From: Escherichia coli
GTDB lineage: Bacteria > Pseudomonadota > Gammaproteobacteria > Enterobacterales > Enterobacteriaceae
Reading direction: 5' to 3' (one strand)
Assembly (NCBI RefSeq): GCF_003018255.1
Contig: NZ_CP027440.1
Length of the DNA stretch: 64,000 nt
The notes under the pieces were generated by a model. It saw only the letters and a list, made by a program, of their open reading frames with translations, ran no database searches and was not told the origin of the DNA. How positions within the stretch are numbered: position 1 is the first letter of the stretch; the number at the start of each line of letters is the position of its first letter. Below, one piece after another: positions 5,727 to 51,544 of this stretch. The position numbers and the translations under genes were made by a program.

Positions 5727-5771
5727 TGCGCGTTTGTTTTGCCCTATTTATCGATCCGACAGAGAAAGCGC

Positions 5772-6473
5772 ATGACAACCTTAAGCTGTAAAGTGACCTC
5801 GGTAGAAGCTATCACGGATACCGTATATCGTGTCCGCATCGTGCCAGACGCGGCCTTTTCTTTTCGTGCTGGTCAGTATTTGATGGTAGTGATGGATGAG
5901 CGCGACAAACGTCCGTTCTCAATGGCTTCGACGCCAGATGAAAAAGGGTTTATCGAGCTGCATATTGGCGCTTCTGAAATCAACCTTTACGCGAAAGCAG
6001 TCATGGACCGCATCCTCAAAGATCATCAAATCGTGGTCGATATTCCCCACGGAGAAGCGTGGCTGCGCGATGATGAAGAGCGTCCGATGATTTTGATTGC
6101 GGGCGGCACCGGGTTCTCTTATGCCCGCTCGATTTTGCTGACAGCGTTGGCGCGTAACCCAAACCGTGATATCACCATTTACTGGGGCGGGCGTGAAGAG
6201 CAGCATCTGTATGATCTCTGCGAGCTTGAGGCGCTTTCGTTGAAGCATCCTGGTCTACAAGTGGTGCCGGTGGTTGAACAACCGGAAGCGGGCTGGCGTG
6301 GGCGTACTGGCACCGTGTTAACGGCGGTATTGCAGGATCATGGTACGCTGGCAGAGCATGATATCTATATTGCCGGACGTTTTGAGATGGCGAAAATTGC
6401 CCGTGACCTGTTTTGCAGCGAGCGTAATGCGCGGGAAGATCGCCTGTTTGGCGATGCGTTTGCATTTATCTGA
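5772..6473 (+). CDS. fre: NAD(P)H-flavin reductase Fre (233 aa)
   Basis: ORF-track frame 5739..6473; start placed at [14 protein letters not shown]; ferredoxin-NADP reductase-like fold motifs (RPFSMAS, GGTGFS). Confidence 0.9.
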
Positions 6474-6480
6474 GATATAA

Positions 6481-6512
6481 AAAACCCGCCCCTGACAGGC
6501 GGGAAGAACGGC
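6481..6512. terminator. GC-rich hairpin (cccgcccctgacaggcggg) flanked by an A-run on the plus strand, which is a T-run on the minus strand; likely terminator for the convergent fadBA transcript and/or fre
   Basis: Inverted repeat read directly; U-tract is on the minus-strand side. Confidence 0.4.
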
Positions 6513-6540
6513 AACTAAAACTTTATACAGTGGCATTTAG

Positions 6541-6660
6541 ATCTATGTCGCATCCGGCATTCGGCACACGCTGCCTGATGCGACGCTGGCGCGTCTTATC
6601 AGGCCTACAATTGGTGCAGGATCGGTAGACCGGATAAGGCGTTCACGCCGCATCTGGCAA
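6541..6660. repeat. REP/BIME-type repetitive extragenic palindromes
   Basis: Motifs gatgcgacgctggcgcgtcttatcaggcctac and ccggataaggcgttcacgccgcatc in inverted orientation between fre and fadA. Confidence 0.6.
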
Positions 6661-6664
6661 GTGG

Positions 6665-7837
<1,173 letters not shown>

Positions 7838-10027
7838 TTAAGCCGTTTTCAGGTCGCCAACCGGACGGGCTGGCTCAACCGGGGGATAGTACGGTTCGTT
7901 ATGACGCGCTTTATTACGCAGACCTTCCGGCACTTCATACAGCGGGCCGAGGTGCTGATATTGTTGTGCCATATCGAGGTATTTTGCGCTACCGAGGGTG
8001 TCCAGCCAGCGGAACGCACCACCGTGGAACGGAGGGAAGCCCAGGCCGTAGACCAGCGCCATATCCGCTTCTGCTGGAGTGGCGATAATGCCTTCTTCCA
8101 GACAGCGCACCACTTCGTTGACCATCGGGATCATCATGCGGGCGATAATCTCTTCTTCGCGGAAATCGCGCTTCGGCTGGCTCACTTCTGCCAGCAGGTC
8201 GTCAACAGCGGCGTCTTCTTCTTTCTTCGGCTTACCTTTGCTGTCTTCTTTATAACGCCAGAAACCGAGGCCGTTCTTCTGACCAAAGCGGTTGGCATCA
8301 AACAGCGCGTCGATGGCATCGCGATAATCTTTCTGCATCCGCTGCGGGAAGCCTGCTGCCATGACAGCCTGGGCATGATGCGCGGTGTCAATGCCCACAA
8401 CGTCCAGCAGATATGCCGGACCCATAGGCCAGCCAAACTGTTTTTCCATCACTTTGTCGATCTTGCGGAAATCCGCGCCGTCGCGCAGCAGCTGGCTGAA
8501 ACCGGCGAAATACGGGAACAGCACGCGGTTAACAAAGAAGCCGGGGCAGTCGTTAACCACAATCGGCGTCTTGCCCATCTTGCTCGCCCAGGCGACAACT
8601 TTCGCGATGGTTTCGTCGGAGCTTTTCTCGCCGCGAATAATTTCCACCAACGGCATTCGGTGGACCGGGTTAAAGAAGTGCATCCCGCAGAAGTTTTCCG
8701 GACGCTCCAGCGCGTTGGCCAGTTCGCTGATAGGAATGGTTGAAGTGTTAGACGCCAGCACGGTATCCGGGCGTACTTTTTGTTCGGTTTCTGCCAGTAC
8801 GGCTTTTTTCACTTTCGGGTTTTCAACAACCGCTTCTACCACAATATCCACGCGGTCAAACCCGGCGTAGTCGAGCGTTGGGTGGATTGTAGAGATCACG
8901 CCAGCCAGTTTCAGACCATCGATCTTGCCGCGCTCAAGCTGCTTGTTCAGCAGTTTCGCTGCTTCGGTCATGCCGAGGGTTAACGACTTGTCGTTAATAT
9001 CTTTCATGACAACCGGCACGCCTTTCCACGCAGACTGGTAAGCGATGCCGCCGCCCATAATGCCTGCGCCCAGCACAGCGGCCTGTTTCGGCGTTTCAAC
9101 GTCTTTGGTGAGTTTCTTCGCTTTGCCTTTTACATATTGATCGTTAAGGAATATGCCGACCAGTGCGCGAGCTTCGTTGGTATGCGCCAGCGGGACAAAA
9201 CTTTTGTTTTCCAGGTTTAGGGCTTCTTCACGACCAAAACGGGCCGCAGCTTCAATGGTTTTTACTGCGGTGATGGGGGCCGGATAATGTTTCCCCGCCG
9301 TTTGTGCGACCATCCCTTTAGCGATGGTGAAGCTCATGGTGGCTTCAATCTTGCTCAGTTTTAGCGGTTCCAGCTTCGGCTGACGTTTCGCTTTCCAGTC
9401 GAGGTCGCCGTTAATGGCCTGGCGTAAAATCGCCATCGCCCCTTCAATCAGTTTTTCTGCTTTGACTACGCCATCCACCAGACCGATTTTCAGCGCTTGA
9501 TCCGCGCCGACATCTTTACCGGCGGCAATGATTTCCAGCGCACTGTCAGCGCCCAGCATACGTGGCATACGTACAGAACCGCCAAAGCCCGGCATGATGC
9601 CCAGTTTGGTTTCCGGCAGACCGATGCGCAGATCCGGCGTCGCCAGACGATAATCGGTCGCCAGCACGCATTCGCAGCCACCGCCCAGCGCATAGCCGTT
9701 GACGGCAGCAATGGTCGGCACCGGCAGATCTTCCAGGCGATTAAACACGCTATTGGCAAAATGTAGCCACTGGCTTAACTGTTCTTCAGGAACGAGGAAC
9801 AGGGACAAAAATTCGGTGATATCAGCACCGACGATAAAGGCTGCTTTGTTCGAACGCAGCAGCAGCCCTTTTAGATCTGATTGCTGTTCCAGCACGCCGA
9901 TGGCCTCGCCGAGGCTGGCGACGGTGGCAGTGTCGAGTTTATTAACTGAACCTGGGGCATCAAATACCAGTTCGGCAATGCCATCTTCCAGCCAGTCAAG
10001 GTACAGGGTGTCGCCTTTGTAAAGCAT
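7838..10027 (-). CDS. fadB: Fatty-acid oxidation complex alpha subunit FadB (enoyl-CoA hydratase / 3-hydroxyacyl-CoA dehydrogenase, 729 aa)
   Basis: ORF-track frame 7838..10153 minus; start placed at internal Met ([16 protein letters not shown]) at 10027; crotonase and NAD-binding domains. Confidence 0.93.
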
Positions 10028-10052
10028 GTCAGTCTCCTGAATCCGCAAGGTG

Positions 10053-10069
10053 ATCTGGTCGTACCAGAT
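10053..10069. promoter_or_regulatory. Candidate FadR operator in the fadBA promoter (palindrome atctggtcgtaccagat)
   Basis: Perfect 17-bp palindrome about 25 bp upstream of the fadB start; resembles the FadR consensus AACTGGTC-N-GACCAGTT. Confidence 0.55.
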
Positions 10070-10216
10070 GCATCGAAGTGTGTATTTTGTGTTAAAAATA
10101 TGCAAATAAAAGATTAAAGAAATGCCGATCTGATCACGCTCGGCAGAAATCACGCTCTGGATGAACGATGTGCTAAGATGCGGAGACTTAAGGTCAAAAA
10201 AACAGAAGGGTAAAAA

Positions 10217-11548
10217 ATGGAATCACTGGCCTCGCTCTATAAAAATCATATAGCTACCTTACAGGAACGGACTCGCGATGCGCTGGCGCGCTTCAAGCTG
10301 GATGCGTTACTTATTCACTCCGGCGAACTGTTCAACGTTTTTCTCGACGATCATCCCTATCCGTTTAAAGTGAATCCGCAATTCAAAGCGTGGGTGCCGG
10401 TAACTCAGGTGCCAAACTGCTGGCTGCTGGTGGATGGCGTGAACAAGCCGAAACTGTGGTTTTATCTGCCGGTTGATTACTGGCACAACGTCGAACCGCT
10501 GCCGACCTCCTTCTGGACTGAAGATGTAGAAGTGATCGCGCTGCCGAAAGCCGATGGCATTGGTAGCCTGCTGCCTGCTGCGCGCGGGAATATCGGTTAT
10601 ATCGGTCCGGTGCCGGAGCGTGCGCTGCAACTGGGTATTGAGGCCAGCAATATCAACCCGAAAGGGGTGATCGACTACCTGCATTACTACCGCTCCTTCA
10701 AAACCGAGTACGAACTGGCCTGTATGCGTGAAGCGCAGAAAATGGCGGTCAACGGTCATCGCGCGGCAGAAGAAGCGTTCCGTTCTGGCATGAGCGAGTT
10801 CGATATCAATATTGCCTATCTGACCGCGACCGGTCATCGTGATACCGACGTACCTTACAGCAACATTGTGGCGCTTAACGAACACGCTGCGGTGTTGCAT
10901 TACACCAAACTGGACCACCAGGCACCGGAAGAGATGCGCAGCTTCCTGCTGGATGCCGGGGCCGAATATAACGGCTATGCGGCTGACCTGACCCGTACCT
11001 GGTCGGCAAAAAGCGACAACGACTACGCACAGCTGGTGAAAGACGTAAATGATGAGCAACTGGCGCTGATCGCCACCATGAAAGCAGGCGTCAGCTATGT
11101 GGATTACCATATCCAGTTCCATCAGCGCATCGCCAAACTGCTGCGTAAACATCAAATCATCACCGATATGAGTGAAGAAGCGATGGTCGAAAACGATCTC
11201 ACCGGACCGTTTATGCCGCACGGTATCGGCCATCCGCTGGGCCTGCAGGTGCATGACGTAGCCGGTTTCATGCAGGATGATAGCGGTACGCACCTCGCGG
11301 CACCGGCAAAATATCCGTACCTGCGCTGCACCCGTATTCTCCAGCCGGGCATGGTGTTAACCATCGAGCCGGGTATCTACTTCATCGAATCGCTACTGGC
11401 ACCGTGGCGTGAAGGGCAGTTCAGTAAACACTTTAACTGGCAGAAAATTGAAGTACTGAAACCGTTCGGCGGCATTCGTATCGAAGACAACGTGGTGATC
11501 CACGAAAACAACGTGGAGAACATGACCCGGGATCTGAAACTGGCGTGA
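10217..11548 (+). CDS. pepQ: Xaa-Pro dipeptidase PepQ (prolidase, 443 aa)
   Basis: ORF 10217..11548; M24 metallopeptidase motifs; divergent from fadBA. Confidence 0.93.
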
Positions 11549-19687: not shown

Positions 19688-19747
19688 CAAATTAAGCAGA
19701 AGGCTATCCGTCAGGATGGCCTTTTTGCGCTGGAGCAGAATAAATAC

Positions 19748-19782
19748 CGGATGCGACGCTGGCGCGTCTTATCCAGCCTACT
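19748..19782. repeat. REP-like palindromic element downstream of the rRNA operon
   Basis: ccggatgcgacgctggcgcgtcttatccagcctac, same family as the elements at 6541-6660. Confidence 0.4.
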
Positions 19783-28891: not shown

Positions 28892-28957
28892 TGGGCGAAA
28901 GAAAAGATCCGTAATGCCTGATACGCCACATCCGGCACAAGCATTAAGGCAAGAAAA

Positions 28958-32289: not shown

Positions 32290-32400
32290 CAATGTGCTGA
32301 GAACAAGATTGCCTGATGCGCTACGCTTATCAGGCCTGCAAAATCTGTTGAAAATATTGCTTTTGTAGGCCGGATAAGGCGTTCACGCCGCATCCGGCAT
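32290..32400. repeat. REP/BIME palindromic elements
   Basis: gcctgatgcgctacgcttatcaggcctgc ... gtaggccggataaggcgttcacgccgcatccggca. Confidence 0.6.
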
Positions 32401-40920: not shown

Positions 40921-42186
40921 ATGCTCACGAAAAAGAAATGGGCGTTATTTAGTCTATTAACATTGTGTGGCGGTACAATTTATAAATTACCGTCTCTGAA
41001 AGATGCGTTTTATATCCCGATGCAGGAATATTTCCATTTGACCAATGGTCAAATTGGTAATGCTATGTCGGTAAACTCATTTGTCACCACAGTGGGCTTT
41101 TTTCTGTCTATTTATTTTGCCGATAAACTACCGCGCAGATACACCATGTCATTCTCACTCATTGCGACAGGATTACTGGGTGTTTATTTGACGACAATGC
41201 CGGGGTATTGGGGCATCCTCTTTGTCTGGGCGCTATTTGGCGTTACTTGCGACATGATGAACTGGCCGGTCTTGCTCAAGTCGGTAAGTCGATTGGGCAA
41301 TAGCGAACAACAAGGTCGGTTGTTTGGCTTCTTCGAAACAGGGCGTGGCATTGTCGATACCGTGGTGGCATTTTCTGCGTTGGCAGTATTTACCTGGTTT
41401 GGCAGTGGCTTATTGGGTTTTAAAGCAGGCATCTGGTTCTATTCCCTTATTGTGATTGCCGTAGGCATTATCATTTTCTTTGTCCTGAATGACAAAGAAG
41501 AGGCACCGTCCGTTGAGGTGAAAAAAGAAGACGGAGCATCGCAAAACACCAGTATGACCTCGGTGCTGAGAGATAAAACCATCTGGCTTATCGCTTTCAA
41601 CGTCTTCTTCGTTTACGCGGTTTACTGTGGCCTAACATTCTTCATTCCATTCCTGAAAAACATCTATCTATTGCCCGTTGCTCTGGTGGGGGCTTACGGC
41701 ATCATTAACCAATACTGTCTGAAAATGATTGGAGGACCGATTGGTGGCATGATTTCAGATAAGATCCTGAAATCGCCGAGTAAATATCTATGCTACACCT
41801 TTATCATAAGTACCGCTGCGCTCGTACTGTTGATTATGCTGCCGCACGAAAGTATGCCGGTCTATTTAGGGATGGCATGTACGCTGGGCTTTGGCGCTAT
41901 AGTCTTCACACAGCGAGCCGTATTTTTTGCACCTATCGGCGAAGCAAAAATTGCTGAAAATAAAACAGGCGCGGCGATGGCGTTGGGTAGCTTTATTGGT
42001 TACGCCCCGGCGATGTTCTGCTTCAGTCTGTATGGCTACATTCTGGATTTAAATCCGGGGATTATTGGCTACAAAATCGTGTTTGGCATTATGGCCTGCT
42101 TCGCATTCTGTGGTGCGGTGGTTTCCGTAATGCTGGTTAAGCGTATTAGCCAACGTAAGAAAGAGATGCTGGCGGCTGAAGCTTAA
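40921..42186 (+). CDS. yihN: MFS-type transporter (421 aa)
   Basis: ORF 40921..42186; about 12 hydrophobic segments; follows yihLM. Confidence 0.75.
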   Translation: MLTKKKWALFSLLTLCGGTIYKLPSLKDAFYIPMQEYFHLTNGQIGNAMSVNSFVTTVGFFLSIYFADKLPRRYTMSFSLIATGLLGVYLTTMPGYWGILFVWALFGVTCDMMNWPVLLKSVSRLGNSEQQGRLFGFFETGRGIVDTVVAFSALAVFTWFGSGLLGFKAGIWFYSLIVIAVGIIIFFVLNDKEEAPSVEVKKEDGASQNTSMTSVLRDKTIWLIAFNVFFVYAVYCGLTFFIPFLKNIYLLPVALVGAYGIINQYCLKMIGGPIGGMISDKILKSPSKYLCYTFIISTAALVLLIMLPHESMPVYLGMACTLGFGAIVFTQRAVFFAPIGEAKIAENKTGAAMALGSFIGYAPAMFCFSLYGYILDLNPGIIGYKIVFGIMACFAFCGAVVSVMLVKRISQRKKEMLAAEA

Positions 42187-42245
42187 TTAGTGGCCGGATG
42201 TGCTTAATCCGGCCAACGAAAACCGTATCAACCGAAGTTTCAATT

Positions 42246-43034
42246 TCAGGATACTTCTTGCTCGGCAACCACCAGTTCAACATTCTCTTCACTTAACAAC
42301 TGGCAGAAAGAATTGGGAGGCGGGGCATCAGTAAAAAAAGCCCTGACATTCCGTGCATTGCCAATTGAAACGGCAGCAGACGCGGTAAACTTCGTATGAT
42401 CGGCCACTAACAATGTATTCCGCGCATGTTTAATCATCGTTCTCGCGACTAACGCTTCATTGACATCAAATTCCAGTAGGGTGCCGTCATGTTCAATGGC
42501 ACCTATACTGGTGATTAAATAATCTGCGCGGAAGCCTTCAATAAAATCCACGGCTCCTGGGCCGATAATCCCACCGTTATGAGCGCGTAAAGTGCCTCCC
42601 GGCACCATCACTTCAATATCCTGATTCTTATAAAGAATCTGTGCCACACGCAGGCTATTAGTGATAATGCGTAAATCACGCCGGTTGAGTAATGCCCTGG
42701 CAACGGCTTCTACGGTTGTACCGATGGTGATAAAGACGGTACAGCGTTCGGGAAGGTAATCGGCGACTGCCTCAGCGATCGCCCGTTTCTCGGCGGTGAG
42801 CGAAAGTTCCCGTTGCTCAAAAGCGGTATTCATGACGCTGGAGACGCGCCCGGCCCCTCCATGATGACGGGTGATCAAGCCCTGCTCACTGAGTTTTCGG
42901 ATATCCCGGCGCACGGTTTGCGTTGAAACATCCAGCAGTTGTGCCAGTTCTTCAATATTCATATAACCGCGTTCTGCGATTAGATGAACGAGTTGGTCAT
43001 GGCGTGGATTACCTGTCACTTCGATGATACTCAT
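42246..43034 (-). CDS. DeoR-family transcriptional regulator, YihW/CsqR-like (262 aa)
   Basis: ORF 42246..43034 minus; N-terminal HTH (MNIEELAQLLDVSTQTVRRDIRKL) plus sugar-phosphate-binding domain; adjacent to kinase/aldolase genes. Confidence 0.8.
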   Translation of the reverse strand: MSIIEVTGNPRHDQLVHLIAERGYMNIEELAQLLDVSTQTVRRDIRKLSEQGLITRHHGGAGRVSSVMNTAFEQRELSLTAEKRAIAEAVADYLPERCTVFITIGTTVEAVARALLNRRDLRIITNSLRVAQILYKNQDIEVMVPGGTLRAHNGGIIGPGAVDFIEGFRADYLITSIGAIEHDGTLLEFDVNEALVARTMIKHARNTLLVADHTKFTASAAVSIGNARNVRAFFTDAPPPNSFCQLLSEENVELVVAEQEVS

Positions 43035-43073
43035 GAATACTCCCTTGCCCCTCCTCGGTAGATGTTTACCATT

Positions 43074-43970
43074 TTACGCATAAAGTGACAAAAATGATTC
43101 GGTTTGCTCACGATTAGGAATGCCGGCCCGACCGCCAGGCTGGGTACATTTCATCGCGGCAACCGCACTGGCAAAACGAATAGCCTCTTTTGTTGGCATT
43201 TTTTCTGCCAACGCTACCGCGAGTGCGCCGTGAAAAACATCGCCTGCTCCAGTGGTATCAACCACATTGACAGAAAATGCCTCCTGTTGACACAAATGAC
43301 CATCTTCAATCCACAACGATCCTTCAGAACCCAGCGTAACATACACTTTACCTGCTGTTTGTGTCGTTGCCTGGAACAAACCTTCTTCAGGTGACTGCAG
43401 GCCAGTCATGCGTTTCAGCCCAGGTGTTGAGAACACGGCGTGATCGGCAAGCGCGACAAGTGGAGAAATATCCTGCGGTGTCATATCGGCGTCTAAAAGC
43501 GTTGTCACACCCGCAAGGCGCGCTAGCGAGAATGCTTTTTCAGTACCGCTATGCCAGCGAACATCGGCCAGAATCAGATCATAACGAGAGAAATCGATCG
43601 CTTCTAACCATTCGGCATCAGTACCGAGATCAGGACTTGGATAATTAACGATAATCCGTTCGCCATGCTGATCAACGAGGATCGCTGATTGCGACGAACG
43701 GGCGTTAGGATATCGGCGGCAAAATGCGGTATTGACGCCCCAACCCTCAAGTTCTGCAAGTAAGGTATTTCCACAACTGTCATCGCCGACGCGACCGATG
43801 AAATCAACCTCCACGCCAAGCTTTGCGATTGCAACAGCGGCTGTTGCTGCCGGGCCGCCACCAATCTCAAGATAATGATTTGCCTGATATTTCCCGCCGC
43901 CCTCCGGCAGAGTGGGCAAAGAATAAATCCTGTCCTGAACTGTGATACCCACGCATGCAATTCTGGTCAT
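43074..43970 (-). CDS. PfkB-family sugar kinase, YihV (sulfofructose kinase)-like
   Basis: ORF-track frame 43074..44021 minus; start probably at [13 protein letters not shown] (43970); PfkB signature [14 protein letters not shown]. Confidence 0.8.
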
Positions 43971-44142
43971 ATTTGTCTTGTCCTGTTTAATTTTGTCGTC
44001 TTTGGTCAATTTAAATGACACAAATGATCAAATTAGTGATGCGTGTCGTGTTTTTGAACATAAATTACAAATATGCTCAAAAACAGACGAAAACGAATTT
44101 TCAATTGTCATTATTTTGTCAATGTCAGACAGGAGAGTATTC
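43971..44142. promoter_or_regulatory. Divergent promoter/operator region between the kinase gene and the reductase-aldolase operon
   Basis: AT-rich intergenic DNA with reiterated tttgtc-containing motifs (ttttgtcgtcttt, ttttgtcaatgtc, atttgtcttgtcc), a pattern expected for DeoR-type operators; RBS aggagag before 44143. Confidence 0.4.
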
Positions 44143-45021
44143 ATGGCAACCATTGCATTTCTCGGGCTGGGGCAGATGGGTAGCCCAATGGCTAACAATC
44201 TATTGCAAAAAGGGCATTCATTGCAGGTATTTGATGTCAATGCACAGGCCGTCGATGTGCTAGTTACGCAGGGGGCCACTGCGGCACAAACCCCAGCGGA
44301 AGCAGCAGCAGGCGCTGAATTTATCATCACTATGCTTCCCAATGGTGACATTGTTCGACAGGTTCTGTTGGGGGAAAAAGGCGTCTGTGAGGCTGTTTCA
44401 TCTGACGCGTTATTGATTGATATGTCGACTATTCATCCCTTACAGACCGATGCATTAATACGGGAGTTACAAGAAAAAGGCATCAGTATGATGGACGCTC
44501 CCGTGGGCAGAACGTCCGTGAATGCGATTGATGGCACATTGCTGATTTTAGCGGGTGGCACTGATGAGCAGATTGCACGTGCACGCCCGATTCTCATGTG
44601 CATGGGTAATGAACTGGTCGAGGCTGGCGGCCCAGGAATGGGGATCCGCGTGAAGCTAATTAACAACTATATGAGCATTGCGCTTAATGCGCTGTCCTCC
44701 GAGGCCGCTGTGTTATGTGAGTCACTGGGATTAAATCTTGATGTCGCAATTAAGGTGATGAGTGGTACGGCAGCAGGGAAAGGACATTTTACGACCACCT
44801 GGCCTGGCAAAGTGCTGAAAGGCGATCTTTCACCCGCCTTCATGGTGGATCTGGCGTTGAAAGATCTGCGTATTGCAGTTGACGTCGCTCGGGAGACGGG
44901 GGCACCGCTCAATATGGGGATTGCAGCAGAAAGTTATTACGCCGCAGCAAGTCAAGACGGCAAAGGGCGGCAGGATTGGAGTGCCCTGCTAAATCAGGTT
45001 CGCCAGCAGGCTGGTCTTTAA
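44143..45021 (+). CDS. NAD(P)-dependent beta-hydroxyacid dehydrogenase family reductase, YihU (sulfolactaldehyde reductase)-like (292 aa)
   Basis: ORF-track frame 43942..45021; start placed at ATG 44143 after RBS; Rossmann motif [13 protein letters not shown]. Confidence 0.8.
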
Positions 45022-45045
45022 TTTTATCTATTAACAGGAGTTTCT

Positions 45046-45933
45046 ATGTCATCCCACTTCACCCCATTTACGCTGAAAGATATCTCCCGCCCAGGTGGTG
45101 GATTCGCCATGTTAGCTGTCGATCAGCGTGAGGCCATGCGCCTGATGTTTGCGGCAGCAGGGCAGCCAAAACCCATCGCCGACAGTGTACTCACCGATTT
45201 TAAAGTTGCCGCGACCCGAATCCTTTCTCCTTATGCTTCTGCCGTTCTGGCGGATAAACAATTTTGTCTTGAACAAATAGTCGAGCAGGGCGCTGTGGCT
45301 AATTCTTGCGGCCTGATTGTCGCTGCCGATCTTTTTATCCCAGGTAATGGCATCCCGGTTGATAGCGTTGAAATAGATATGTCCGTCGACCCGCATAAAG
45401 CCCGTGAAATGGGGGCTAAGGCAATGAAATTACTTGTACTCTGGCGTGAAGATGAACCCGCAGAGGAACGTCTGGCAATGGTTGATAAATTTGTTCGTCG
45501 CTGCCGTAGTGCCGGGCTGGTTAGCATTATTGAACCTGTGGTGCGTCCACCTCGTCGCGGTTGGGACTTTGATCGTGAAAGCGCCATTGTTGCCGCCGCC
45601 GCAGAGCTTGGTGGAACAGAGGCTGATCTTTACAAAGCCGAGATGCCATTAGGGGGCAAAGGCGATGAAAAAACCTTACTTGCCGCCTGTCAGCAACTTA
45701 ACGATCAGATGAAGATGCCGTGGGTAATTCTTTCTTCTGGCGTTGATGCCGATATTTTTGGCCGTGCAGTAAGTATTGCCATGAAAGGTGGTGCGTCGGG
45801 CTTCCTGGCTGGACGAGCGGTATGGGCGTCGGTTGTTGGTGCACAAGATCCACAAACCATGCTGCGCGATGTCTCCGTTCCACGCTTGCAACGGCTGGCT
45901 GAAATTGTCGATGAAGGTATCGCGCAACGCTAA
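45046..45933 (+). CDS. Class I aldolase of the LacD/YihT (sulfofructose-phosphate aldolase) family (295 aa)
   Basis: ORF 45046..45933; [13 protein letters not shown] motif region characteristic of YihT/LacD-like aldolases. Confidence 0.8.
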
Positions 45934-45965
45934 TCCCCTATGGATATCGATTCTGGAGAATAACA

Positions 45966-46976
45966 ATGGATAAAATTACCCAGGTTTTATTTTCAGATAT
46001 TGGGAAAGTCACCACTCAATATGTTGAAGTACCACACCAGCAACTTAAACCGCACGAAGTACGGATTGCGCCCGTGTTCTACGGGATATGCGGTTCGGAT
46101 CTGCATGTTCTGAAAGGCGGTCATCCGTTTGCCAAGCCGCCTGTCGTCCCCGGTCATGAAATTGCAGCGCGCGTTACGGAAGTGGGCAGCGACGTTAAAA
46201 ATGTACAGCCGGGCGATCATGTTGTGGTCGATCCCATCATGGCTTGCATGGAATGCCGAGCCTGCAAAGCAGGACGTTTTAATCTTTGTGAACCACCGCA
46301 GGTTGCTGGTTTTCGCGCACCGGGCTTTGCTCGCTCACAACACATTGTTCCTGCGCGTAATTGCCATGTCGCACCAGCCTCTTTACCGCTAAAAGTGTTG
46401 GCCTTTGCCGAACCGGCGGCTTGTGCTCGTCACTGCGTTAACCGAATGCCGAAAGCTTCTCTGGAAAGCGTACTGGTGATTGGTGCCGGAACGATAGGCT
46501 TATCCATCGTGCAGGCACTGCGCATTATGGGGGCAGGTAAGATTACCGTGATTGAACCTGACGCTGCCAAACGCGCGCTGGCGTTAAAGCTGGGCGCAGC
46601 AGAAGTTTGGGCACCAGGTGAGCTGGCCGCAGATGTGAGATTTACGGGGGCGATTGATGTCGTTGCAGCGCAGGCCACGCTTAACGATGCATGTACCCGT
46701 GTATATGCCGGAGGCACCGTCGTGTGCATGGGCGTACCAAGTGGGCCGCGTGAAATACCATTACCGATGATGCAACGTTTCGAGCGTGACTTGCTCAACT
46801 CTGGCATGTACATCCCTGAAGATTTCGATGCTGTTATCGAATGGCTGGCGGATGGGCGGTTTGATACCAGTGAACTGGTTACCGATTTATTTGCCATTGA
46901 GGATGCAGCGGCGGCATTCGAACGCGCGCAGCAAAATGACTCCATAAAGGTCATGCTGCAATTTGCGCCGGAATGA
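45966..46976 (+). CDS. Zinc-dependent medium-chain alcohol/polyol dehydrogenase (sorbitol/threonine dehydrogenase-like, 336 aa)
   Basis: ORF 45966..46976; catalytic Zn ligands (GICGSDLH, GHE) and structural Zn cysteines (CMECRACKAGRFNLC); Rossmann motif GAGTIG. Confidence 0.8.
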   Translation: MDKITQVLFSDIGKVTTQYVEVPHQQLKPHEVRIAPVFYGICGSDLHVLKGGHPFAKPPVVPGHEIAARVTEVGSDVKNVQPGDHVVVDPIMACMECRACKAGRFNLCEPPQVAGFRAPGFARSQHIVPARNCHVAPASLPLKVLAFAEPAACARHCVNRMPKASLESVLVIGAGTIGLSIVQALRIMGAGKITVIEPDAAKRALALKLGAAEVWAPGELAADVRFTGAIDVVAAQATLNDACTRVYAGGTVVCMGVPSGPREIPLPMMQRFERDLLNSGMYIPEDFDAVIEWLADGRFDTSELVTDLFAIEDAAAAFERAQQNDSIKVMLQFAPE

Positions 46977-47045
46977 TTTTCTAAATCTCTGTCTGGCGCT
47001 GCGTCACGTCAGCGCCACCCTACAACAATTAAAAAGGACACTGCG

Positions 47046-48479
47046 ATGAGTCAAATCACCAGTCCTGCAACTTATTCAATTAGTCGGCCACAGGACGTAA
47101 TTGATATTGTTAATAAGAACTCTGCAATCAACACCAGTATCGGCGTTATTTTTATTGCTTTGGGCGGCATATTGATTGATGCCTACCAGGTGGCGATGGT
47201 GGGGTTTGGTAATAAATACATTGCCGCTCAATTCGGCATTTCTCCGGGTCTTGCTGCGACCGTCAATGCGTCAGTATTAATCGCCGCGTTAATTGGCGGT
47301 TTATTAGCGAACCGAGTAATAAACCGCTTTGGGCAAAAGCGGGCATTTATTATTGGCATGGGGCTGTGCACCATCGGTGCTGCAGCGGTAGCTATTGCTC
47401 CCAGTATCTGGTGGGTGCTGGTGTGCCGCGTCATCATGGGCTTTGGTTTAGGCATCGACTTCCCTTTGGCAACTAATGCCGTGGCAGAGCTTCGTGGTTC
47501 AACGTCGAAGAAAACCGGAACGTCGGTCAACCTCTGGCAAATGGCCTGGTATGTTTCGACAACCGTTGTTTATTTGGTGCTTTTGCCGCTGCTTCTGTCG
47601 GGTATCGCTGAAGAACAATTGTGGCGTTACGGAATATTCATCGGAGCTATTTTTGCAGTCATCTTCATGATTTTGCGTTACTTCTTTATTGGTGAATCCG
47701 CAATGTGGGCCGCACGCGTTGGGCGTTACCAGGAAGCGTGCGACATTCTGGGAAAACGTTATGGTGTTCAGGCTCGCGTTGCGGCATCGGGTACAACAGA
47801 AGCGAAATTCTCGGAAAAAGCAGAGAATAAATACAGTGGTGGATATGGCATCTTATTTAATGATCGTTACCGCAAACGCACCATTCTTGGCTGTGTCGTG
47901 GCAACCATGCAGGCGTGGCAATATAACGCCGTAGGTGTTTATCTTCCTCTTACGTTGGCGGGAATAATAAGTGGCGGGCTTACTGGCGCGTTGACCGGTT
48001 CTGCCGTCGTGAATGCCCTTTGTGGGGTGACAGGTGGGATGATCGGCTCGTTTATTCTCCAACGACTGGGTACTCGCCGACAGTCGATGTATGGATTTGC
48101 TGTTGTGACCTTAGCATTGCTGTCGTTAGGCGCACTGGCAACGACTAATCCTTGGCTGTCTTTAGGGTTATTGGGATCAATTATTTTCTTCCATTCAGCG
48201 GGTCCTGGTGGGCTGGGCATGACCATTGCCACACTCTCTTATCCTCCCGCTATTCGCCCTACTGGGGTCGGATTTGCCCGCGCTATTATGCGCACAGGGG
48301 CAATTGCAGGACTCATTTTCTGGCCGATGCTGTGGGGTGCGTTGAAAACTGAAGCGTTTTACTGGTTGGCAATCGTGCCATTCCTGGGATTCCTAACCTG
48401 TGTATTGATTAATTGGGAACCACTGGGTGCAAATGTTGATGCTGAGGACGCAGAGGTTCTGGCTGAATTGAAGAAATAA
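47046..48479 (+). CDS. MFS transporter (477 aa)
   Basis: ORF 47046..48479; about 12 TM helices; RBS aaggac. Confidence 0.75.
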   Translation: MSQITSPATYSISRPQDVIDIVNKNSAINTSIGVIFIALGGILIDAYQVAMVGFGNKYIAAQFGISPGLAATVNASVLIAALIGGLLANRVINRFGQKRAFIIGMGLCTIGAAAVAIAPSIWWVLVCRVIMGFGLGIDFPLATNAVAELRGSTSKKTGTSVNLWQMAWYVSTTVVYLVLLPLLLSGIAEEQLWRYGIFIGAIFAVIFMILRYFFIGESAMWAARVGRYQEACDILGKRYGVQARVAASGTTEAKFSEKAENKYSGGYGILFNDRYRKRTILGCVVATMQAWQYNAVGVYLPLTLAGIISGGLTGALTGSAVVNALCGVTGGMIGSFILQRLGTRRQSMYGFAVVTLALLSLGALATTNPWLSLGLLGSIIFFHSAGPGGLGMTIATLSYPPAIRPTGVGFARAIMRTGAIAGLIFWPMLWGALKTEAFYWLAIVPFLGFLTCVLINWEPLGANVDAEDAEVLAELKK

Positions 48480-48480
48480 T

Positions 48481-48514
48481 TTAATGCGCATCGGCTTAAG
48501 CCGATGCGCATTAA
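48481..48514. repeat. Perfect 34-bp palindrome between the two transporter genes
   Basis: ttaatgcgcatcggcttaagccgatgcgcattaa read directly; no downstream T-tract. Confidence 0.6.
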
Positions 48515-48577
48515 TTCAAACTGCCCACGTTTAGTGGTTCGTATCCCAGATTTCTCGCCTACCAGGAGAGGAAAATT

Positions 48578-49927
48578 ATGTCTGAAAAGTTACCCGCACC
48601 GCGTGAAGGGCTTTCCGGTAAAGCCATGAGACGTGTCGTTATGGGCAGTTTCGCAGGCGCGTTAATGGAATGGTATGACTTCTTTATTTTTGGCACGGCA
48701 GCAGGACTGGTATTTGCACCGCTGTTTTATCCAGACAGCGATCCTTTTATAGGTCTTATAGCTTCCTTTGCGACCTTTGGTGTCGGTTTTCTGACTCGTC
48801 CTTTAGGGGGCATCGTCTTTGGTCATTTTGGCGATAAAATCGGGCGAAAAATAACACTTATCTGGACGCTGGCTATTGTCGGTTGCTCCACATTTTTGAT
48901 TGGTTTTATTCCGACGTATCAGGAAATTGGCATTTGGGCACCGCTTGTATTAATGGTGCTGCGTTTGATTCAGGGCTTTGGTCTTGGTGGCGAGTACGGT
49001 GGAGCGGCATTGATGACCATAGAATCAGCGCCCGAATCCCGACGCGGATTTTTAGGTTCACTCCCGCAAACGGCTGCGTCTGTGGGTATTATGCTGGCAA
49101 CCGGTATTTTTGCTCTCTGTAACCATTTTCTTACTTCGGAGCAGTTTCTCTCCTGGGGATGGCGCATTCCGTTTTGGCTTTCTGCGGTGATGTTGATCGT
49201 TGGGCTGTTTATCCGCCTACATACCGAAGAAACGCTGGATTTTCAAAAGCAAAAAACGACGAATAATAAAGAAAAGTCCGTTCCTCCGTTGATTGAATTA
49301 TTCAAAAAACATCCACGAAATATTTTATTGGCACTGGGTGCGAGGCTGGCGGAAAGTGTCTCCTCTAATATTATTAATGCCTTTGGTATTGTCTATATTT
49401 CCAGCCAATTAGCATTGTCGCGAGATATTCCCCTGACGGGTATGTTGATTGCCTCGGCGATCGGTATTTTCAGTTGTCCATTGGTTGGATGGTTATCAGA
49501 TCGTATAGGTCAAAAAAGTCTGTATTTGTCGGGAGCAGGATTTTGTGTCCTGTTCGCGTTTCCTTTCTTCTTATTATTGGATAGCAAAAGTACGCTCATC
49601 ATCTGGTGCAGTATGATCCTCGGCTACAACTTAGGTCCGACGATGATGTTTGCCGTGCAGCCAACACTTTTCACCCGCATGTTCGGTACCAAAGTACGAT
49701 ATACCGGCCTTTCTTTTGCTTATCAATTTTCCGCGATTCTTGGCGGACTAAGCCCCCTTATCGCCTCAAGTTTGCTGGCGCTAGGGGGAGGAAAACCGTG
49801 GTATGTCGCTCTGTTTTTATTTGCTGTCTCAGTTCTTTCCTTTGTTTGCGTCTGGCTGATTGAGCCGACCGATGAACAAGAAACCGCTTCTTACCGCTAC
49901 ATCAGGGAACAATCTCATGAAAACTGA
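48578..49927 (+). CDS. MFS transporter of the metabolite:H+ symporter (MHS, ProP/KgtP-like) type (449 aa)
   Basis: ORF 48578..49927; MHS-like N-terminal motifs (GALMEWYDFFIFG, GHFGDKIGRK). Confidence 0.75.
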   Translation: MSEKLPAPREGLSGKAMRRVVMGSFAGALMEWYDFFIFGTAAGLVFAPLFYPDSDPFIGLIASFATFGVGFLTRPLGGIVFGHFGDKIGRKITLIWTLAIVGCSTFLIGFIPTYQEIGIWAPLVLMVLRLIQGFGLGGEYGGAALMTIESAPESRRGFLGSLPQTAASVGIMLATGIFALCNHFLTSEQFLSWGWRIPFWLSAVMLIVGLFIRLHTEETLDFQKQKTTNNKEKSVPPLIELFKKHPRNILLALGARLAESVSSNIINAFGIVYISSQLALSRDIPLTGMLIASAIGIFSCPLVGWLSDRIGQKSLYLSGAGFCVLFAFPFFLLLDSKSTLIIWCSMILGYNLGPTMMFAVQPTLFTRMFGTKVRYTGLSFAYQFSAILGGLSPLIASSLLALGGGKPWYVALFLFAVSVLSFVCVWLIEPTDEQETASYRYIREQSHEN

Positions 49928-50804
49928 ACGAAAAAACGAGCATTACCTGGCGCTACAACAGGCGTTTGACGCGCCATGGCCTGGGCCTGTAGGAGAGTTA
50001 GTGATGCTGGAAAAAGGCAATATTCACCTGCAGATTTATCCGCATGATGGTGCCAGGATAACCTCGTTAAAGGCATTTGGTTCTGAAGTATTACGCCAAT
50101 GGCAGCCGCAGCGCAGAGCTTTTCAGTATGGCTGTTTCCCAATGGTGCCGTGGGCAGGGCGACTGGGGAATGCGACGCTGAATGCTGGTGGGCAATGTTA
50201 TTCTTTACCCGCCAATAAACCACCACATGCGTTGCATGGTATGGCTTGTTACTCAACGTGGGAAATCATCGACAAAACAGCAGATTCCCTGACTTTACGT
50301 ATGCCCCTGGCTTCACCGTGGCCCTGGCAAGGGGAAGTGATTCAGACTTTTTTGCTGGAGAACGATGCGCTGGTTTTGCAACTGGAAGTCCATTCATATG
50401 CCGATACATTCCCGGCCTCCGCAGGCTGGCATCCGTGGTTTGCGAAAAAGCTGACTCCGCAAAATACAGAATCGTTGCAGGTGCTTTTTGATGCGGACTG
50501 GCAAGAAGAAGCGGGTAGTGATGAACTGCCAACTGGAAATCGTATCTCTCCTCAAGTCGGTCCCTGGGATGACTGTTTTGGTTTTTATGACGGGGTGAAG
50601 GTTAAGTTACTGTGGCCTGGTAAACTCGCGATGACCATGACCTCTTCTGCAAACAGTCTGGTGGTATTTGATAAACAGCCCGATGCCACCTGTATTAACC
50701 CGCTGACTCAGGCACCTAACGCAATAAATCTAACGCCGGAATTTGTGACACCAGATAAGCCGCTGGTCATCGAAACTCGTTGGCAATTTACACCTGAATC
50801 TTAA
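49917..50804 (+). CDS. Aldose 1-epimerase (mutarotase)-family protein, YihR-like
   Basis: ORF-track frame 49860..50804; start placed at ATG 49917 (MKTERKNE) after an RBS, overlapping the upstream stop by 11 nt. Confidence 0.7.
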   Translation: MKTERKNEHYLALQQAFDAPWPGPVGELVMLEKGNIHLQIYPHDGARITSLKAFGSEVLRQWQPQRRAFQYGCFPMVPWAGRLGNATLNAGGQCYSLPANKPPHALHGMACYSTWEIIDKTADSLTLRMPLASPWPWQGEVIQTFLLENDALVLQLEVHSYADTFPASAGWHPWFAKKLTPQNTESLQVLFDADWQEEAGSDELPTGNRISPQVGPWDDCFGFYDGVKVKLLWPGKLAMTMTSSANSLVVFDKQPDATCINPLTQAPNAINLTPEFVTPDKPLVIETRWQFTPES

Positions 50805-50811
50805 CCATTCA

Positions 50812-50850
50812 TCTATTGCGAAAAAGACAGTGAAATTACTCTGCTTTTTC
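50812..50850 (+). terminator. Terminator hairpin after the cassette operon
   Basis: ttgcgaaaaagacagtgaaattactctgctttttcgcaa inverted repeat. Confidence 0.6.
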
Positions 50851-50944
50851 GCAATCAGCATCACAAGATTACCCTTATTGCCACATAGCCAAACCCATCC
50901 TTTCCCGCTACAGTTAATTTCTTGTGGCGCGAAAGGAGGCAAAA

Positions 50945-51544
50945 ATGCTCTATATCTTTGATTTAGGTAATGTGATTGTCGATATCGACTTTAACCGTGT
51001 GCTGGGGGCCTGGAGCGATTTAACGCGTGTTCCACTGGCTACGCTTAAGAAGAGTTTCCACATGGGCGAGGCGTTTCATCAGCATGAGCGTGGGGAAATT
51101 AGCGACGAAGCGTTCGCAGAGGCGCTGTGTCATGAGATGGCCCTGCCGCTAAGCTACGAGCAGTTCTCTCACGGCTGGCAGGCGGTGTTTGTCGCGCTGC
51201 GCCCGGAAGTGATCGCCATCATGCATAAACTGCGTGAGCAGGGGCATCGCGTGGTGGTGCTTTCCAATACCAACCGCCTGCATACCACCTTCTGGCCGGA
51301 AGAATATCCGGAAATTCGTGATGCTGCTGACCATATCTATCTGTCGCAAGATCTGGGGATGCGCAAACCCGAAGCACGAATTTACCAGCATGTTTTGCAG
51401 GCGGAAGGTTTTTCACCAGACGATACGGTCTTTTTCGACGATAACGCCGATAATATAGAAGGAGCTAATCGGCTAGGCATTACTAGTATTCTGGTGAAAG
51501 ATAAAACCACCATCCCGGACTATTTCGCGAAGGTGTTATGCTAA
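50945..51544 (+). CDS. yihX: HAD-family alpha-D-glucose-1-phosphate phosphatase YihX (199 aa)
   Basis: ORF-track frame 50924..51544; start placed at [16 protein letters not shown] (HAD motif I). Confidence 0.88.

What the first reader, a model, noticed from the sequence alone, without database searches (positions are those of the whole stretch)
47046..49927. Two tandem MFS transporters separated by a perfect 34-bp palindrome
The 477-aa MFS and the 449-aa MHS-type symporter are adjacent in the same operon. This is consistent with separate import of substrate and export of a C3 product such as dihydroxypropanesulfonate. Between them lies a perfect palindrome (48481-48514) with no T-tract: an internal attenuator, RNase processing site or protein-binding site rather than a canonical terminator. 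The downstream gene overlaps the second transporter by 11 nt, suggesting translational coupling.
Basis: seen in the sequence. Interest (0 to 1): 0.4.

Follow-up and report, generated by a model that had tools for sequence, protein, structure and literature searches.

The report
Conserved RNA hairpin between two transporter genes
The 34-bp palindrome is a rare, perfected E. coli allele of an RNA stem-loop that many bacteria keep between two unrelated transporter genes of a sulfosugar-type operon; it is an ordinary kind of operon punctuation, and neither a repeat element nor a protein-binding site.

Summary
Two MFS genes (47046-48479 and 48578-49927) are separated by a perfect 17+17 palindrome (48481-48514), and the next gene overlaps by 11 nt.

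The window is the E. coli yih locus of the Nissle/CFT073 'short cassette' type. The palindrome occurs once per genome, only at this junction, in all 1328 genomes that hold the stretch, so it is not a dispersed repeat.

Perfection is allele-specific:
- 19 of 1328 genomes carry the perfect form.
- 866 carry a U.G wobble at the apical pair.
- 441 carry a C.A mismatch there, offset by two extra basal pairs.
- All alleles fold at -24 to -26 kcal/mol.

Across Escherichia, Citrobacter, Mixta and Trabulsiella the stem keeps its pairing through double substitutions. More distant genera place unrelated GC-rich hairpins at the same junction, in front of MFS2, mostly without a U-tract. A second conserved hairpin precedes MFS1, and a conserved anti-Shine-Dalgarno hairpin precedes MFS2.

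Best reading: a sense-strand intercistronic RNA stem-loop (decay barrier, processing site or weak attenuator) that lowers MFS2 and mutarotase expression relative to the upstream genes. A protein operator and a REP element are disfavoured.

The import/export split is plausible, because the sulfonate pockets of kinase, aldolase and reductase are conserved, but it is untested. Interest is modest. The under-described eight-gene cluster is the more interesting by-product.

The parts
47046..48479 (+). MFS1, a 477-aa MFS transporter. It resembles sugar porters, aromatic-acid symporters and phosphate symporters, with no close characterised relative.
   Evidence: ORF. PGAP names it 'MFS transporter'. 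Pfam Sugar_tr E 6.5e-30. Orthologues are 60-92% identical in Proteobacteria and Actinobacteria. The nearest solved structure is the fungal phosphate:H+ symporter, E 3e-11.
48481..48514 (+). H1, the 34-bp perfect palindrome. As RNA it gives a 15-bp stem with a UUAA loop, starting 2 nt after the MFS1 stop codon.
   Evidence: -25.9 kcal/mol, z -7.4. Single copy in 1328 genomes. Nine of 15 pairs show changes on both sides across genera.
48525..48537 (+). H2, a weak 4-bp hairpin (CCAC GUUUA GUGG). In Phytobacter, Erwinia typographi and Enterobacter 10-1 the equivalent is a 10-11-bp stem followed by UUUUCUC.
   Evidence: helix 2: three of four pairs change on both sides.
48551..48573 (+). H3, an anti-Shine-Dalgarno hairpin (UUUCUC.CCU ACC AGG.GAGGAA) that pairs the MFS2 ribosome-binding site.
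   Evidence: RNAalifold consensus. 97.8% of cells are paired, with one GC<->UA covarying pair. The upstream arm is invariant across genera while the rest of the spacer diverges.
48578..49927 (+). MFS2, a 449-aa MHS-like MFS transporter.
   Evidence: TIGR00883 406.8 bits; ShiA model 410 bits. 41% identical to the fosfomycin efflux pump AbaF. Relatives are named MHS family by NCBI.
49917..50804 (+). Aldose-1-epimerase family gene that overlaps MFS2 by 11 nt.
   Evidence: PGAP annotation mapped from L001. Pfam Aldose_epim E 2.9e-21. 27% identical to K-12 YihR.
46995..47016 (+). Second intercistronic hairpin (GGCGCUG...CAGCGCC), between the Zn-dependent alcohol dehydrogenase gene and MFS1.
   Evidence: Pairing is kept with different sequences in Citrobacter, Mixta, Erwinia, Trabulsiella and others. 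A stable hairpin sits at this junction in 20 of 28 loci.
44143..46976 (+). Upstream genes of the same string: YihU-like sulfolactaldehyde reductase (44143-45021), YihT-like aldolase (45046-45933) and Zn-dependent alcohol dehydrogenase (45966-46976).
42246..43970 (-). Divergent genes: DeoR-type regulator (42246-43034, 71.5% identical to CsqR) and YihV-like PfkB kinase (43074-43970).
50815..50855 (+). Strong hairpin with A- and U-runs after the epimerase gene. It is the likely true end of the operon.
   Evidence: the 146-nt spacer folds at -42.4 kcal/mol, z -6.8.

Best explanation
The palindrome is the DNA image of an intercistronic RNA stem-loop. It sits in the sense transcript of a polycistronic operon: yihU-like reductase, aldolase, Zn-dependent alcohol dehydrogenase (ADH), MFS1, MFS2, mutarotase-like gene.

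The stem-loop forms 2 nt after the MFS1 stop codon. It most likely acts as operon punctuation. One option is a barrier to 3'-to-5' exonucleases after endonucleolytic cleavage in the AU-rich spacer. The other is inefficient termination, which is listed as a separate rival. Either way the upstream segment (enzymes plus MFS1) would outlast or outnumber the downstream segment (MFS2 plus mutarotase).

A conserved anti-Shine-Dalgarno hairpin (48551-48573) further damps MFS2 translation. A sister hairpin (46995-47016) does the same kind of job in front of MFS1.

Shown here: the structure, its single-copy status, conservation of pairing rather than sequence, its fixed position in front of MFS2, and equal stability of all E. 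coli alleles.

Inferred, not shown: the effect on mRNA decay, processing or termination, and on protein ratios.

The perfect symmetry of this window's allele is incidental. It is one transition away from the common U.G allele.
For: 1. Stability: -25.9 kcal/mol, z -7.4. The other E. coli alleles and a cryptic Escherichia fold at -24.2, -24.7, -25.8 and -25.1 kcal/mol. The C.A allele regains stability through a T-to-A change at 48480 that adds two basal pairs.

2. Both rare alleles restore pairing from a major allele: U.G to C-G in this window, and C.A to U-A in strain 4114.

3. Covariation over 15 sequences from 6 genera. In helix 1, nine of 15 pairs change on both sides. For the whole structure 88% of cells are paired, against 41-53% when the partners are slid, and 0 of 500 shuffles reach the observed score. 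RNAalifold recovers the helix without being told it.

4. Position is conserved without sequence. A hairpin of -12 kcal/mol or better lies at MFS1>MFS2 in 19 of 22 loci. Where a reductase gene is inserted, it lies at reductase>MFS2 in 4 of 4 loci but at MFS1>reductase in only 1 of 5. The short junctions yihU>aldolase (0 of 13), aldolase>ADH (2 of 20) and MFS2>epimerase (1 of 26) have none.

5. Strand. G.U outnumbers A.C by 20 to 10 overall, and by 13 to 2 in Citrobacter, Mixta and Trabulsiella. This points to the sense RNA rather than duplex DNA.

6. No promoter-like site lies between the two genes. In my reading of the tails, a U-rich tail follows the hairpin in only 4 of the 24 junctions that have a stable hairpin.

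7. The K-12 sulfo-EMP operon has the same layout. A GC-rich hairpin with no U-tract lies between the stop codon of yihP and the ribosome-binding site of yihO, and another lies between yihQ and yihP.
Against: - No transcript data were available, so neither a 3' end, a cleavage site nor a drop in coverage at 48.5 kb has been seen.
- The covariation set is small and phylogenetically structured.
- MAFFT misaligns the degenerate H1 of the Phytobacter group.
- Three loci (L023, L024, L035) have short spacers and no hairpin, so the element is dispensable in some lineages.
- In Nissle 1917 the cassette was not induced by sulfoquinovose (PMC12608037), so the conditions under which the operon is transcribed are unknown.
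- Decay barrier, RNase III site and weak attenuator cannot be told apart from sequence.
Confidence: 0.6

Rival explanations
1. The hairpin is a weak intrinsic terminator (attenuator). It stops a fraction of RNA polymerases after MFS1, so that MFS2 and the mutarotase gene are transcribed less.
For: - The GC-rich stem lies directly after a stop codon.
- If the basal A-U pairs melt, the tail is AUUAAUUC, with 4 U in 8 (read from the sequence).
- In Vibrio and in the Phytobacter/Erwinia/Enterobacter group the equivalent hairpin is followed by a real U-run, ACUUUUUC and UUUUCUCA.
- The hairpin is flagged as terminator-like on the - strand.
Against: - The + strand tail fails the 5-of-8 T criterion.
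- In my reading of the tails, 20 of the 24 junctions with a stable hairpin lack a U-rich tail.
- No promoter-like site exists downstream to re-start transcription of MFS2.
- This rival overlaps the best explanation in its outcome and differs only in the step at which polarity is set.
Confidence: 0.22
2. The palindrome is a DNA operator for a dimeric regulator, for example the DeoR-type YihW homologue encoded 5 kb upstream.
For: - Perfect two-fold symmetry, with an internal ATGCGCAT sub-palindrome in each arm.
- DeoR-family proteins can use distant auxiliary sites (general knowledge).
Against: - The arms change sequence between genera while keeping complementarity.
- G.U is tolerated far more often than A.C.
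- The two major E. coli alleles break the DNA symmetry at the centre.
- The sequence does not resemble the inverted repeat in the divergent promoter region at 44049-44085.
Confidence: 0.05
3. It is a member or remnant of a dispersed palindromic repeat family (REP/BIME, MITE).
For: The half-site GCCGATGCGC loosely resembles the REP core GCCGGATGCG (my reading of the sequence).
Against: - blastn with 11-base words finds the 45-nt stretch only at this locus. The two 'places' per genome are the two strands of the same palindrome. All 1328 genomes that hold the stretch show this pattern.
- The half-site is not enriched in the window: 13 matches against 8.9 expected.
- The REP consensus finds six real REPs elsewhere in the window but not this site.
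- No Rfam family reaches its threshold.
Confidence: 0.02
4. It is a functionless leftover: the terminator of a once separate upstream operon, kept or perfected by quasi-palindrome template-switch mutation rather than by selection.
For: - The alpha- and betaproteobacterial versions have a different gene order around this junction.
- Both rare E. coli alleles are 'corrections' towards a perfect palindrome, which template switching would also produce.
- Three loci do without any hairpin.
Against: - Hairpins of unrelated sequence occupy the same junction in many genera and several classes, and they move with MFS2 when the order changes.
- Stability is equalised across the alleles.
- An adjacent anti-SD hairpin is conserved.
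Confidence: 0.1

Closest known systems
Intercistronic stem-loops that set differential expression inside operons, such as the REP hairpins between malE and malF in E. coli (Newbury and Higgins, 1987; cited from memory)
   Same: A stable hairpin between two cistrons of one transcript, just after a stop codon, with no U-tract. The upstream message is expected to be protected from 3' exonucleases.
   Different: This one is unique in the genome, whereas the malE-malF element is a REP. The functional effect has not been measured here.
The yihP-yihO and yihQ-yihP junctions of the E. coli K-12 sulfo-EMP operon
   Same: Same chromosomal locus and the same kind of pathway. Two tandem transporter genes are separated by a GC-rich hairpin with no U-tract, followed by a ribosome-binding site.
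   Different: - The K-12 transporters are both GPH-family paralogues, whereas MFS1 and MFS2 are unrelated beyond the superfamily.
- The K-12 stems are 7-9 bp, against 15 bp here.
- The sequences are unrelated.
[quoted passage not shown] 2025, PMC12608037)
   Same: This is the same locus and orientation. The paper reports the cassette in all but one phylogroup and finds it not induced by sulfoquinovose.
   Different: The paper treats the cassette as a four-gene truncation. Its text does not mention the ADH, MFS1, MFS2 and epimerase genes that continue the operon. Those four genes are conserved together with the other four across several bacterial classes.
Rho-independent terminators
   Same: A GC-rich hairpin after a stop codon.
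   Different: No U-tract on the sense strand, and a co-directional gene with no promoter follows 63 nt later.
Quasi-palindrome 'correction' mutations by intramolecular template switching (Ripley; Lovett; cited from memory)
   Same: The two rare alleles each turn an imperfect palindrome into a perfect one through a single change at the apical pair.
   Different: Selection for RNA pairing predicts the same outcome. The mutational mechanism was not tested.

Membership tests
Rho-independent (intrinsic) terminator | GC-rich stem-loop | tested here: met
   15-bp stem with 8 G-C pairs, -25.9 kcal/mol.
Rho-independent (intrinsic) terminator | U-rich tract directly 3' of the stem on the transcribed strand | tested here: not met
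   The + strand tail TTCAAACT has 3 T in 8. Only the - strand passes the scan.
Rho-independent (intrinsic) terminator | Lies at the end of a transcription unit | tested here: not met
   MFS2 starts 63 nt downstream on the same strand, with no promoter-like site between. The strong hairpin after the epimerase gene at 50815-50855 is the better operon end.
REP / BIME repeats of E. coli | Many dispersed copies per genome | tested here: not met
   One site per genome in 1328 genomes.
REP / BIME repeats of E. coli | Match to the REP consensus GCCKGATGCGRCGY | tested here: not met
   The consensus search with one mismatch finds six REPs in the window and none at 48481-48514.
Intercistronic mRNA stem-loop (operon punctuation) | Stable hairpin between two co-transcribed cistrons | tested here: met
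Intercistronic mRNA stem-loop (operon punctuation) | Pairing rather than sequence is conserved in orthologous operons | tested here: met
Intercistronic mRNA stem-loop (operon punctuation) | Upstream message is more abundant or more stable than the downstream one; 3' ends or processed ends map at the hairpin | not testable with these tools
   No transcript-end or coverage data could be reached. The Nissle RNA-seq supplement does not list these genes.
Transcription-factor operator | Half-site sequence conserved across orthologous loci | tested here: not met
   The arms diverge between Escherichia, Citrobacter, Mixta and Trabulsiella and are unrelated in Leminorella, Budvicia, Vibrio and others.
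Metabolite:H+ symporter (MHS) family, for MFS2 | Score above the curated cut-off of the MHS subfamily model | tested here: inconclusive
   TIGR00883 scores 406.8 bits against a cut-off of 443.45, and the ShiA equivalog 409.7 against 538. MHS is the best-matching family. MFS2 is 41% identical to AbaF, and NCBI names relatives 'MHS family MFS transporter'.
Sulfo-EMP pathway gene set | Sulfofructose kinase with the K27/N109/R138 sulfonate triad | tested here: met
   Ungapped alignment to 7AG6 with all three residues kept, plus D13, D162 and the GAGD motif. Residues are taken from PMC8006165.
Sulfo-EMP pathway gene set | Sulfofructose-phosphate aldolase with the Schiff-base Lys and the S226/S227/R253 pocket | tested here: met
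   The alignment to 7AG1 keeps K193, S226, S227 and R253 in chain numbering.
Sulfo-EMP pathway gene set | Sulfolactaldehyde reductase | tested here: met
   NCBIfam equivalog NF012005 scores 580 bits against a cut-off of 348. R123, N174 and S178 are kept.
Sulfo-EMP pathway gene set | Sulfoquinovose isomerase YihS and sulfoquinovosidase YihQ | tested here: not met
   Neither is in the window cluster. Neither lies within 8 kb in any of the eight-gene loci. A Zn-dependent alcohol dehydrogenase takes their place.
Sulfo-EMP pathway gene set | Induction by sulfoquinovose | not tested
   From the literature only: no induction of the short cassette in Nissle 1917 (PMC12608037).

The most novel reading that the evidence does not exclude
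The palindrome and its sister hairpins would punctuate a complete, uncharacterised sulfoglycolysis-like operon rather than a 'truncated' yih cassette. In this reading a Zn-dependent alcohol dehydrogenase and a mutarotase-like protein feed a sulfosugar other than sulfoquinovose glycosides into the conserved sulfofructose kinase, aldolase and reductase steps. Two unrelated MFS carriers would divide the work: MFS2 with the mutarotase for import, and MFS1 for DHPS export. The hairpins and the anti-SD element would set the ratio of the two carriers.
Probability: 0.3. Interest if true: 0.6.

Novelty: new member of a known kind. Interest (0 to 1): 0.33.

Why it matters
The hairpin itself is a routine piece of operon design. 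Its value is as a clean natural example. The E. coli population carries three alleles of equal folding energy. Two rare second-site changes restore pairing. Unrelated hairpins sit at the same junction in distant bacteria.

The larger point concerns the cassette. The 'short yih cassette', carried by about a quarter of complete E. coli genomes (1343 of 5426, including CFT073 and ST131), is not a truncation. It is an eight-gene cluster conserved from Enterobacterales to Alphaproteobacteria and Actinobacteria, with intact sulfonate pockets, a different entry enzyme and two dedicated carriers. Working out its substrate would add a route to sulfosugar metabolism in gut E. coli. It could also explain why the cassette does not respond to sulfoquinovose.

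Tried and rejected
- **Rfam** (E-value mode, 42000-51500). The only hits were psRNA14 at 33 bits (gathering score 60) and a Brucella sRNA at 22 bits. Both are hairpin-driven and below threshold.
- **REP or dispersed repeat.** Rejected.
- **Internal promoter for MFS2.** No promoter-like site lies in 48480-48577.
- **Plasmid carriage.** PLSDB has no copy of the cluster. The only hits are distant MFS relatives, including abaF.
- **Recent duplication of the two transporters.** Rejected: they share only a 28% match over 134 residues.
- **Literature by protein accession.** No paper found.
- **Literature by hypothetical sulfo-alditol names or 'sulfo-EMP3'.** No paper found.
- **Literature by combined pathway terms.** Only irrelevant papers.
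- **Nissle RNA-seq supplement.** It does not list the ADH, MFS or epimerase genes, so no expression ratio could be extracted.
- **Riboswitch reading of the 98-nt spacer.** Rejected: apart from the arms of the anti-SD hairpin nothing unpaired is conserved between Escherichia and Citrobacter.
- **Recombination between the two major alleles as the origin of the perfect allele.** Unlikely, because it would need two crossovers within 20 bp.
Full report
**What is there**

The window is an E. coli chromosome. The 3.2 kb around the finding is 95-100% identical to 1343 of 5426 complete E. coli genomes. In the best match the neighbourhood reads as follows:
- typA, yihL, yihM and yihN;
- then, on the opposite strand, a DeoR-type regulator and a sugar kinase;
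- then, co-directionally, a yihU-like reductase, an aldolase, a Zn-dependent alcohol dehydrogenase (ADH), an MFS transporter, a second MFS transporter and an aldose 1-epimerase;
- then yihX and yihY.

This is the yih locus in the form that Kaznadzey et al. 2025 call the 'short cassette' (yihTUVW) of Nissle 1917 and other strains. They report that it is not induced by sulfoquinovose (PMC12608037).

**Is the palindrome more than chance, and is it a repeat?**

The palindrome has 17+17 perfectly complementary bases with no spacer. It is the longest perfect inverted repeat in the 64 kb. About 4e-6 such palindromes are expected by chance (my arithmetic). As RNA it gives a 15-bp stem with a UUAA loop, at -25.9 kcal/mol and z = -7.4.

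A sensitive blastn of the 45-nt stretch against all complete E. coli genomes finds it in 1328 genomes, always at this junction. The two 'places' per genome are the two strands of one palindrome. The half-site is not enriched in the window. The REP consensus picks up six real REPs elsewhere in the window but not this site. No Rfam family reaches its threshold.

**Variation within E. coli**

Six strains differ in the spacer only at the apical pair (48495/48500) and at 48480. Using each allele as a query gives these counts:

| Allele | Apical pair | Genomes (of 1328) |
|---|---|---|
| CFT073 type | U.G wobble | 866 |
| AR0077 type | C.A mismatch, plus A at 48480 | 441 |
| This window | C-G, perfect palindrome | 19 |
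| Strain 4114 | U-A | 1 |
| Not identified | - | 1 |

The 'perfect palindrome' is therefore a rare allele, one transition away from the CFT073 type. Both rare alleles restore pairing from a major allele.

The C.A allele has a T-to-A change at 48480 that adds two basal A-U pairs. As a result all four alleles, and a cryptic Escherichia, fold at -24.2 to -25.9 kcal/mol. That pattern fits selection on hairpin stability. The two 'corrections' would also fit quasi-palindrome template switching.

**Comparison across genera**

A scan of one genome per species with an MFS1 alignment returned 30 loci. tblastn with the window proteins shows the same gene set (regulator, kinase, reductase, aldolase, ADH, MFS1, MFS2, epimerase) in all of the following:
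- Enterobacterales and relatives: Escherichia, Citrobacter, Mixta, Erwinia typographi, Phytobacter, Trabulsiella, Edaphovirga, Leminorella, Budvicia and Pantoea;
- other Gammaproteobacteria: Vibrio and Succinivibrionaceae;
- Betaproteobacteria: Sutterella and Propionivibrio;
- Alphaproteobacteria: Roseospira, Telmatospirillum and Pleomorphomonas.

A Propionibacteriaceae contig carries the regulator-to-MFS1 part and then ends. The tandem of two MFS genes is thus a conserved property of the cluster. It is not a recent duplication, because the two proteins share only superfamily-level similarity.

In the Escherichia/Citrobacter/Mixta/Trabulsiella group the hairpin after MFS1 is homologous and keeps its pairing through double substitutions. 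One example is UUAAUG/CAUUAA in E. coli against UUCAUG/CAUGAA in Escherichia sp. MOD1. Another is AU/AU against GC/GC in the middle of the stem.

The counts on the 15-sequence alignment are as follows:
- RNAalifold recovers the helix without being given it.
- Nine of the 15 pairs of the helix show changes on both sides.
- For the whole structure, 88% of cells are paired, against 41-53% for slid controls, and 0 of 500 shuffles reach the observed score.
- G.U pairs outnumber A.C pairs by 20 to 10 overall, and by 13 to 2 in Citrobacter, Mixta and Trabulsiella. This points to the sense-strand RNA rather than duplex DNA.

More distant genera have unrelated GC-rich hairpins at the same place.

A survey of the best hairpin at every junction of all loci gives these counts of hairpins at -12 kcal/mol or better:

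| Junction | Loci with a stable hairpin |
|---|---|
| MFS1>MFS2 | 19 of 22 |
| reductase>MFS2 (where a reductase gene is inserted) | 4 of 4 |
| MFS1>reductase (same loci) | 1 of 5 |
| ADH>MFS1 | 20 of 28 |
| yihU>aldolase | 0 of 13 |
| aldolase>ADH | 2 of 20 |
| MFS2>epimerase | 1 of 26 |

The hairpins therefore mark the two junctions in front of the transporter genes. In my reading of the tails, only 4 of the 24 junctions with a stable hairpin in front of MFS2 have a U-rich tail. These are Vibrio and the Phytobacter/Erwinia/Enterobacter trio. Most of the hairpins are thus not canonical terminators.

**Two further elements**

- The ADH>MFS1 hairpin of the window (46995-47016) is also conserved through compensatory change.
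- Just before the MFS2 start codon, UUUCUC.CCU...AGG.GAGGAA (48551-48573) pairs the Shine-Dalgarno sequence. Its upstream arm is invariant across genera in which the rest of the spacer diverges. One inner pair switches from G-C to U-A in Escherichia.

**Mechanism**

The most economical reading is an intercistronic RNA stem-loop that sets polarity within the operon. It would act as a barrier to 3' exonucleases after cleavage in the AU-rich spacer, as an RNase III-type processing site, or as a leaky terminator. The anti-SD hairpin would further lower MFS2 translation.

The structure, its conservation and its placement are shown. The effects on RNA and on protein ratios are inferred. The K-12 sulfo-EMP operon has the same design between its own tandem transporter genes, yihP and yihO, and between yihQ and yihP. 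This underlines that the feature is ordinary.

A DNA operator is unlikely, because the sequence is not conserved and the common E. coli alleles break the symmetry at the centre.

**The transporters and the pathway**

The window's proteins compare with their K-12 counterparts as follows:

| Window protein | K-12 counterpart | Identity |
|---|---|---|
| Regulator | CsqR | 71.5% |
| Kinase | YihV | 67% |
| Reductase | YihU | 72.6% |
| Aldolase | YihT | 66.7% |
| Epimerase | YihR | 27% |

All published sulfonate-pocket residues are retained, taken from PMC8006165:
- K27, N109 and R138 in the kinase;
- K193, S226, S227 and R253 in the aldolase;
- R123, N174 and S178 in the reductase.

The reductase also passes the NCBIfam sulfolactaldehyde-reductase equivalog cut-off. 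A sulfofructose to sulfolactaldehyde to DHPS lower pathway is therefore likely, and the idea of one importer plus one DHPS exporter is reasonable.

YihS, YihQ, YihO and YihP are absent from all the eight-gene loci, and a Zn-dependent ADH takes their place.

Which carrier does what is open.
- For MFS1 as the exporter and MFS2 as the importer:
  - MFS1 sits directly before the reductase gene in the alpha- and betaproteobacterial versions.
  - An MFS1 homologue (51% identical) also occurs in Gilliamella clusters of the K-12 type, beside YihS and a YihO/P-like carrier.
  - MFS2 is always next to the mutarotase-like gene.
- For the reverse assignment:
  - MFS1 looks like sugar and phosphate porters.
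  - MFS2 is 41% identical to AbaF, an efflux pump for the C3 phosphonate fosfomycin.

**Verdict**

The finding is a new member of a known kind, of modest interest. The more interesting by-product is that the 'short yih cassette' is an eight-gene, widely transferred cluster. The paper that describes the cassette does not mention its four extra genes.

Noticed in passing
window 42246-50804: The 'short yih cassette' is described in PMC12608037 as the four genes yihTUVW. It is in fact followed, on the same strand, by a Zn-dependent alcohol dehydrogenase, two MFS carriers and an aldose-1-epimerase-like gene. All eight genes stay together in genera from Enterobacterales to Alpha- and Betaproteobacteria, and a truncated Propionibacteriaceae contig carries the regulator-to-MFS1 part. 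No YihS, YihQ, YihO or YihP lies within 8 kb. The sulfonate-pocket residues of the kinase, aldolase and reductase are intact.
   Followed up: partly
window 46995-47016: A second intercistronic hairpin (GGCGCUG...CAGCGCC) lies between the alcohol dehydrogenase gene and MFS1. It is conserved through compensatory changes in other genera and has no U-tract.
   Followed up: partly
window 48551-48573: A conserved hairpin pairs the MFS2 Shine-Dalgarno sequence with an invariant upstream UUUCUC. One inner pair covaries, G-C to U-A. In the Phytobacter group the same UUUUCUC also serves as the U-run after a strong hairpin.
   Followed up: partly
window 48480, 48495, 48500: The only polymorphic spacer positions in six strains are the apical pair and one basal position of the hairpin. 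Both apical changes are C-to-T transitions at the symmetric position of the two strands. The two rare alleles both restore pairing, which fits either selection or quasi-palindrome template switching.
   Followed up: partly
L031 and L033 (Gilliamella), 1-10912: These are sulfo-EMP clusters of the K-12 type: yihT, yihU, yihV, a DeoR-type regulator, an Fe-dependent alcohol dehydrogenase, a Dak1-domain protein and yihS (75% identical). They contain an MFS1 homologue (51% identical) next to a YihO/P-like GPH carrier. The MFS1 family is therefore linked to sulfoglycolysis genes in two different architectures.
   Followed up: partly
window 48578-49927 against L037:1347-2633: MFS2 is 41% identical over 427 residues to AbaF, the Acinetobacter baumannii efflux pump for the C3 phosphonate fosfomycin.
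   Followed up: no
window 44049-44085: An inverted repeat, TGTTTTTGAACATA (9 nt) TATGCTCAAAAACA, lies in the divergent kinase/reductase promoter region. It is a candidate operator for the DeoR-type regulator.
   Followed up: no
L038 (K-12) 7768-7809 and 9196-9240, minus strand: The K-12 long cassette also has GC-rich hairpins with no U-tract between yihP and yihO and between yihQ and yihP. The yihS-yihR spacer folds very strongly (-54 kcal/mol, z -3.4).
   Followed up: no
window 6545-6658, 19746-19759, 28923-28936, 32385-32398: Real REP elements that match GCCKGATGCGRCGY. They served as a positive control for the repeat test.
   Followed up: no
window 50815-50855: A strong hairpin with internal A- and U-runs lies after the epimerase gene. 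It is the probable operon terminator, upstream of yihX.
   Followed up: no
window 55031-55633: A HigB-2 toxin / NadS-family antitoxin gene pair lies downstream of the yih region, according to the annotation of the near-identical genome.
   Followed up: no
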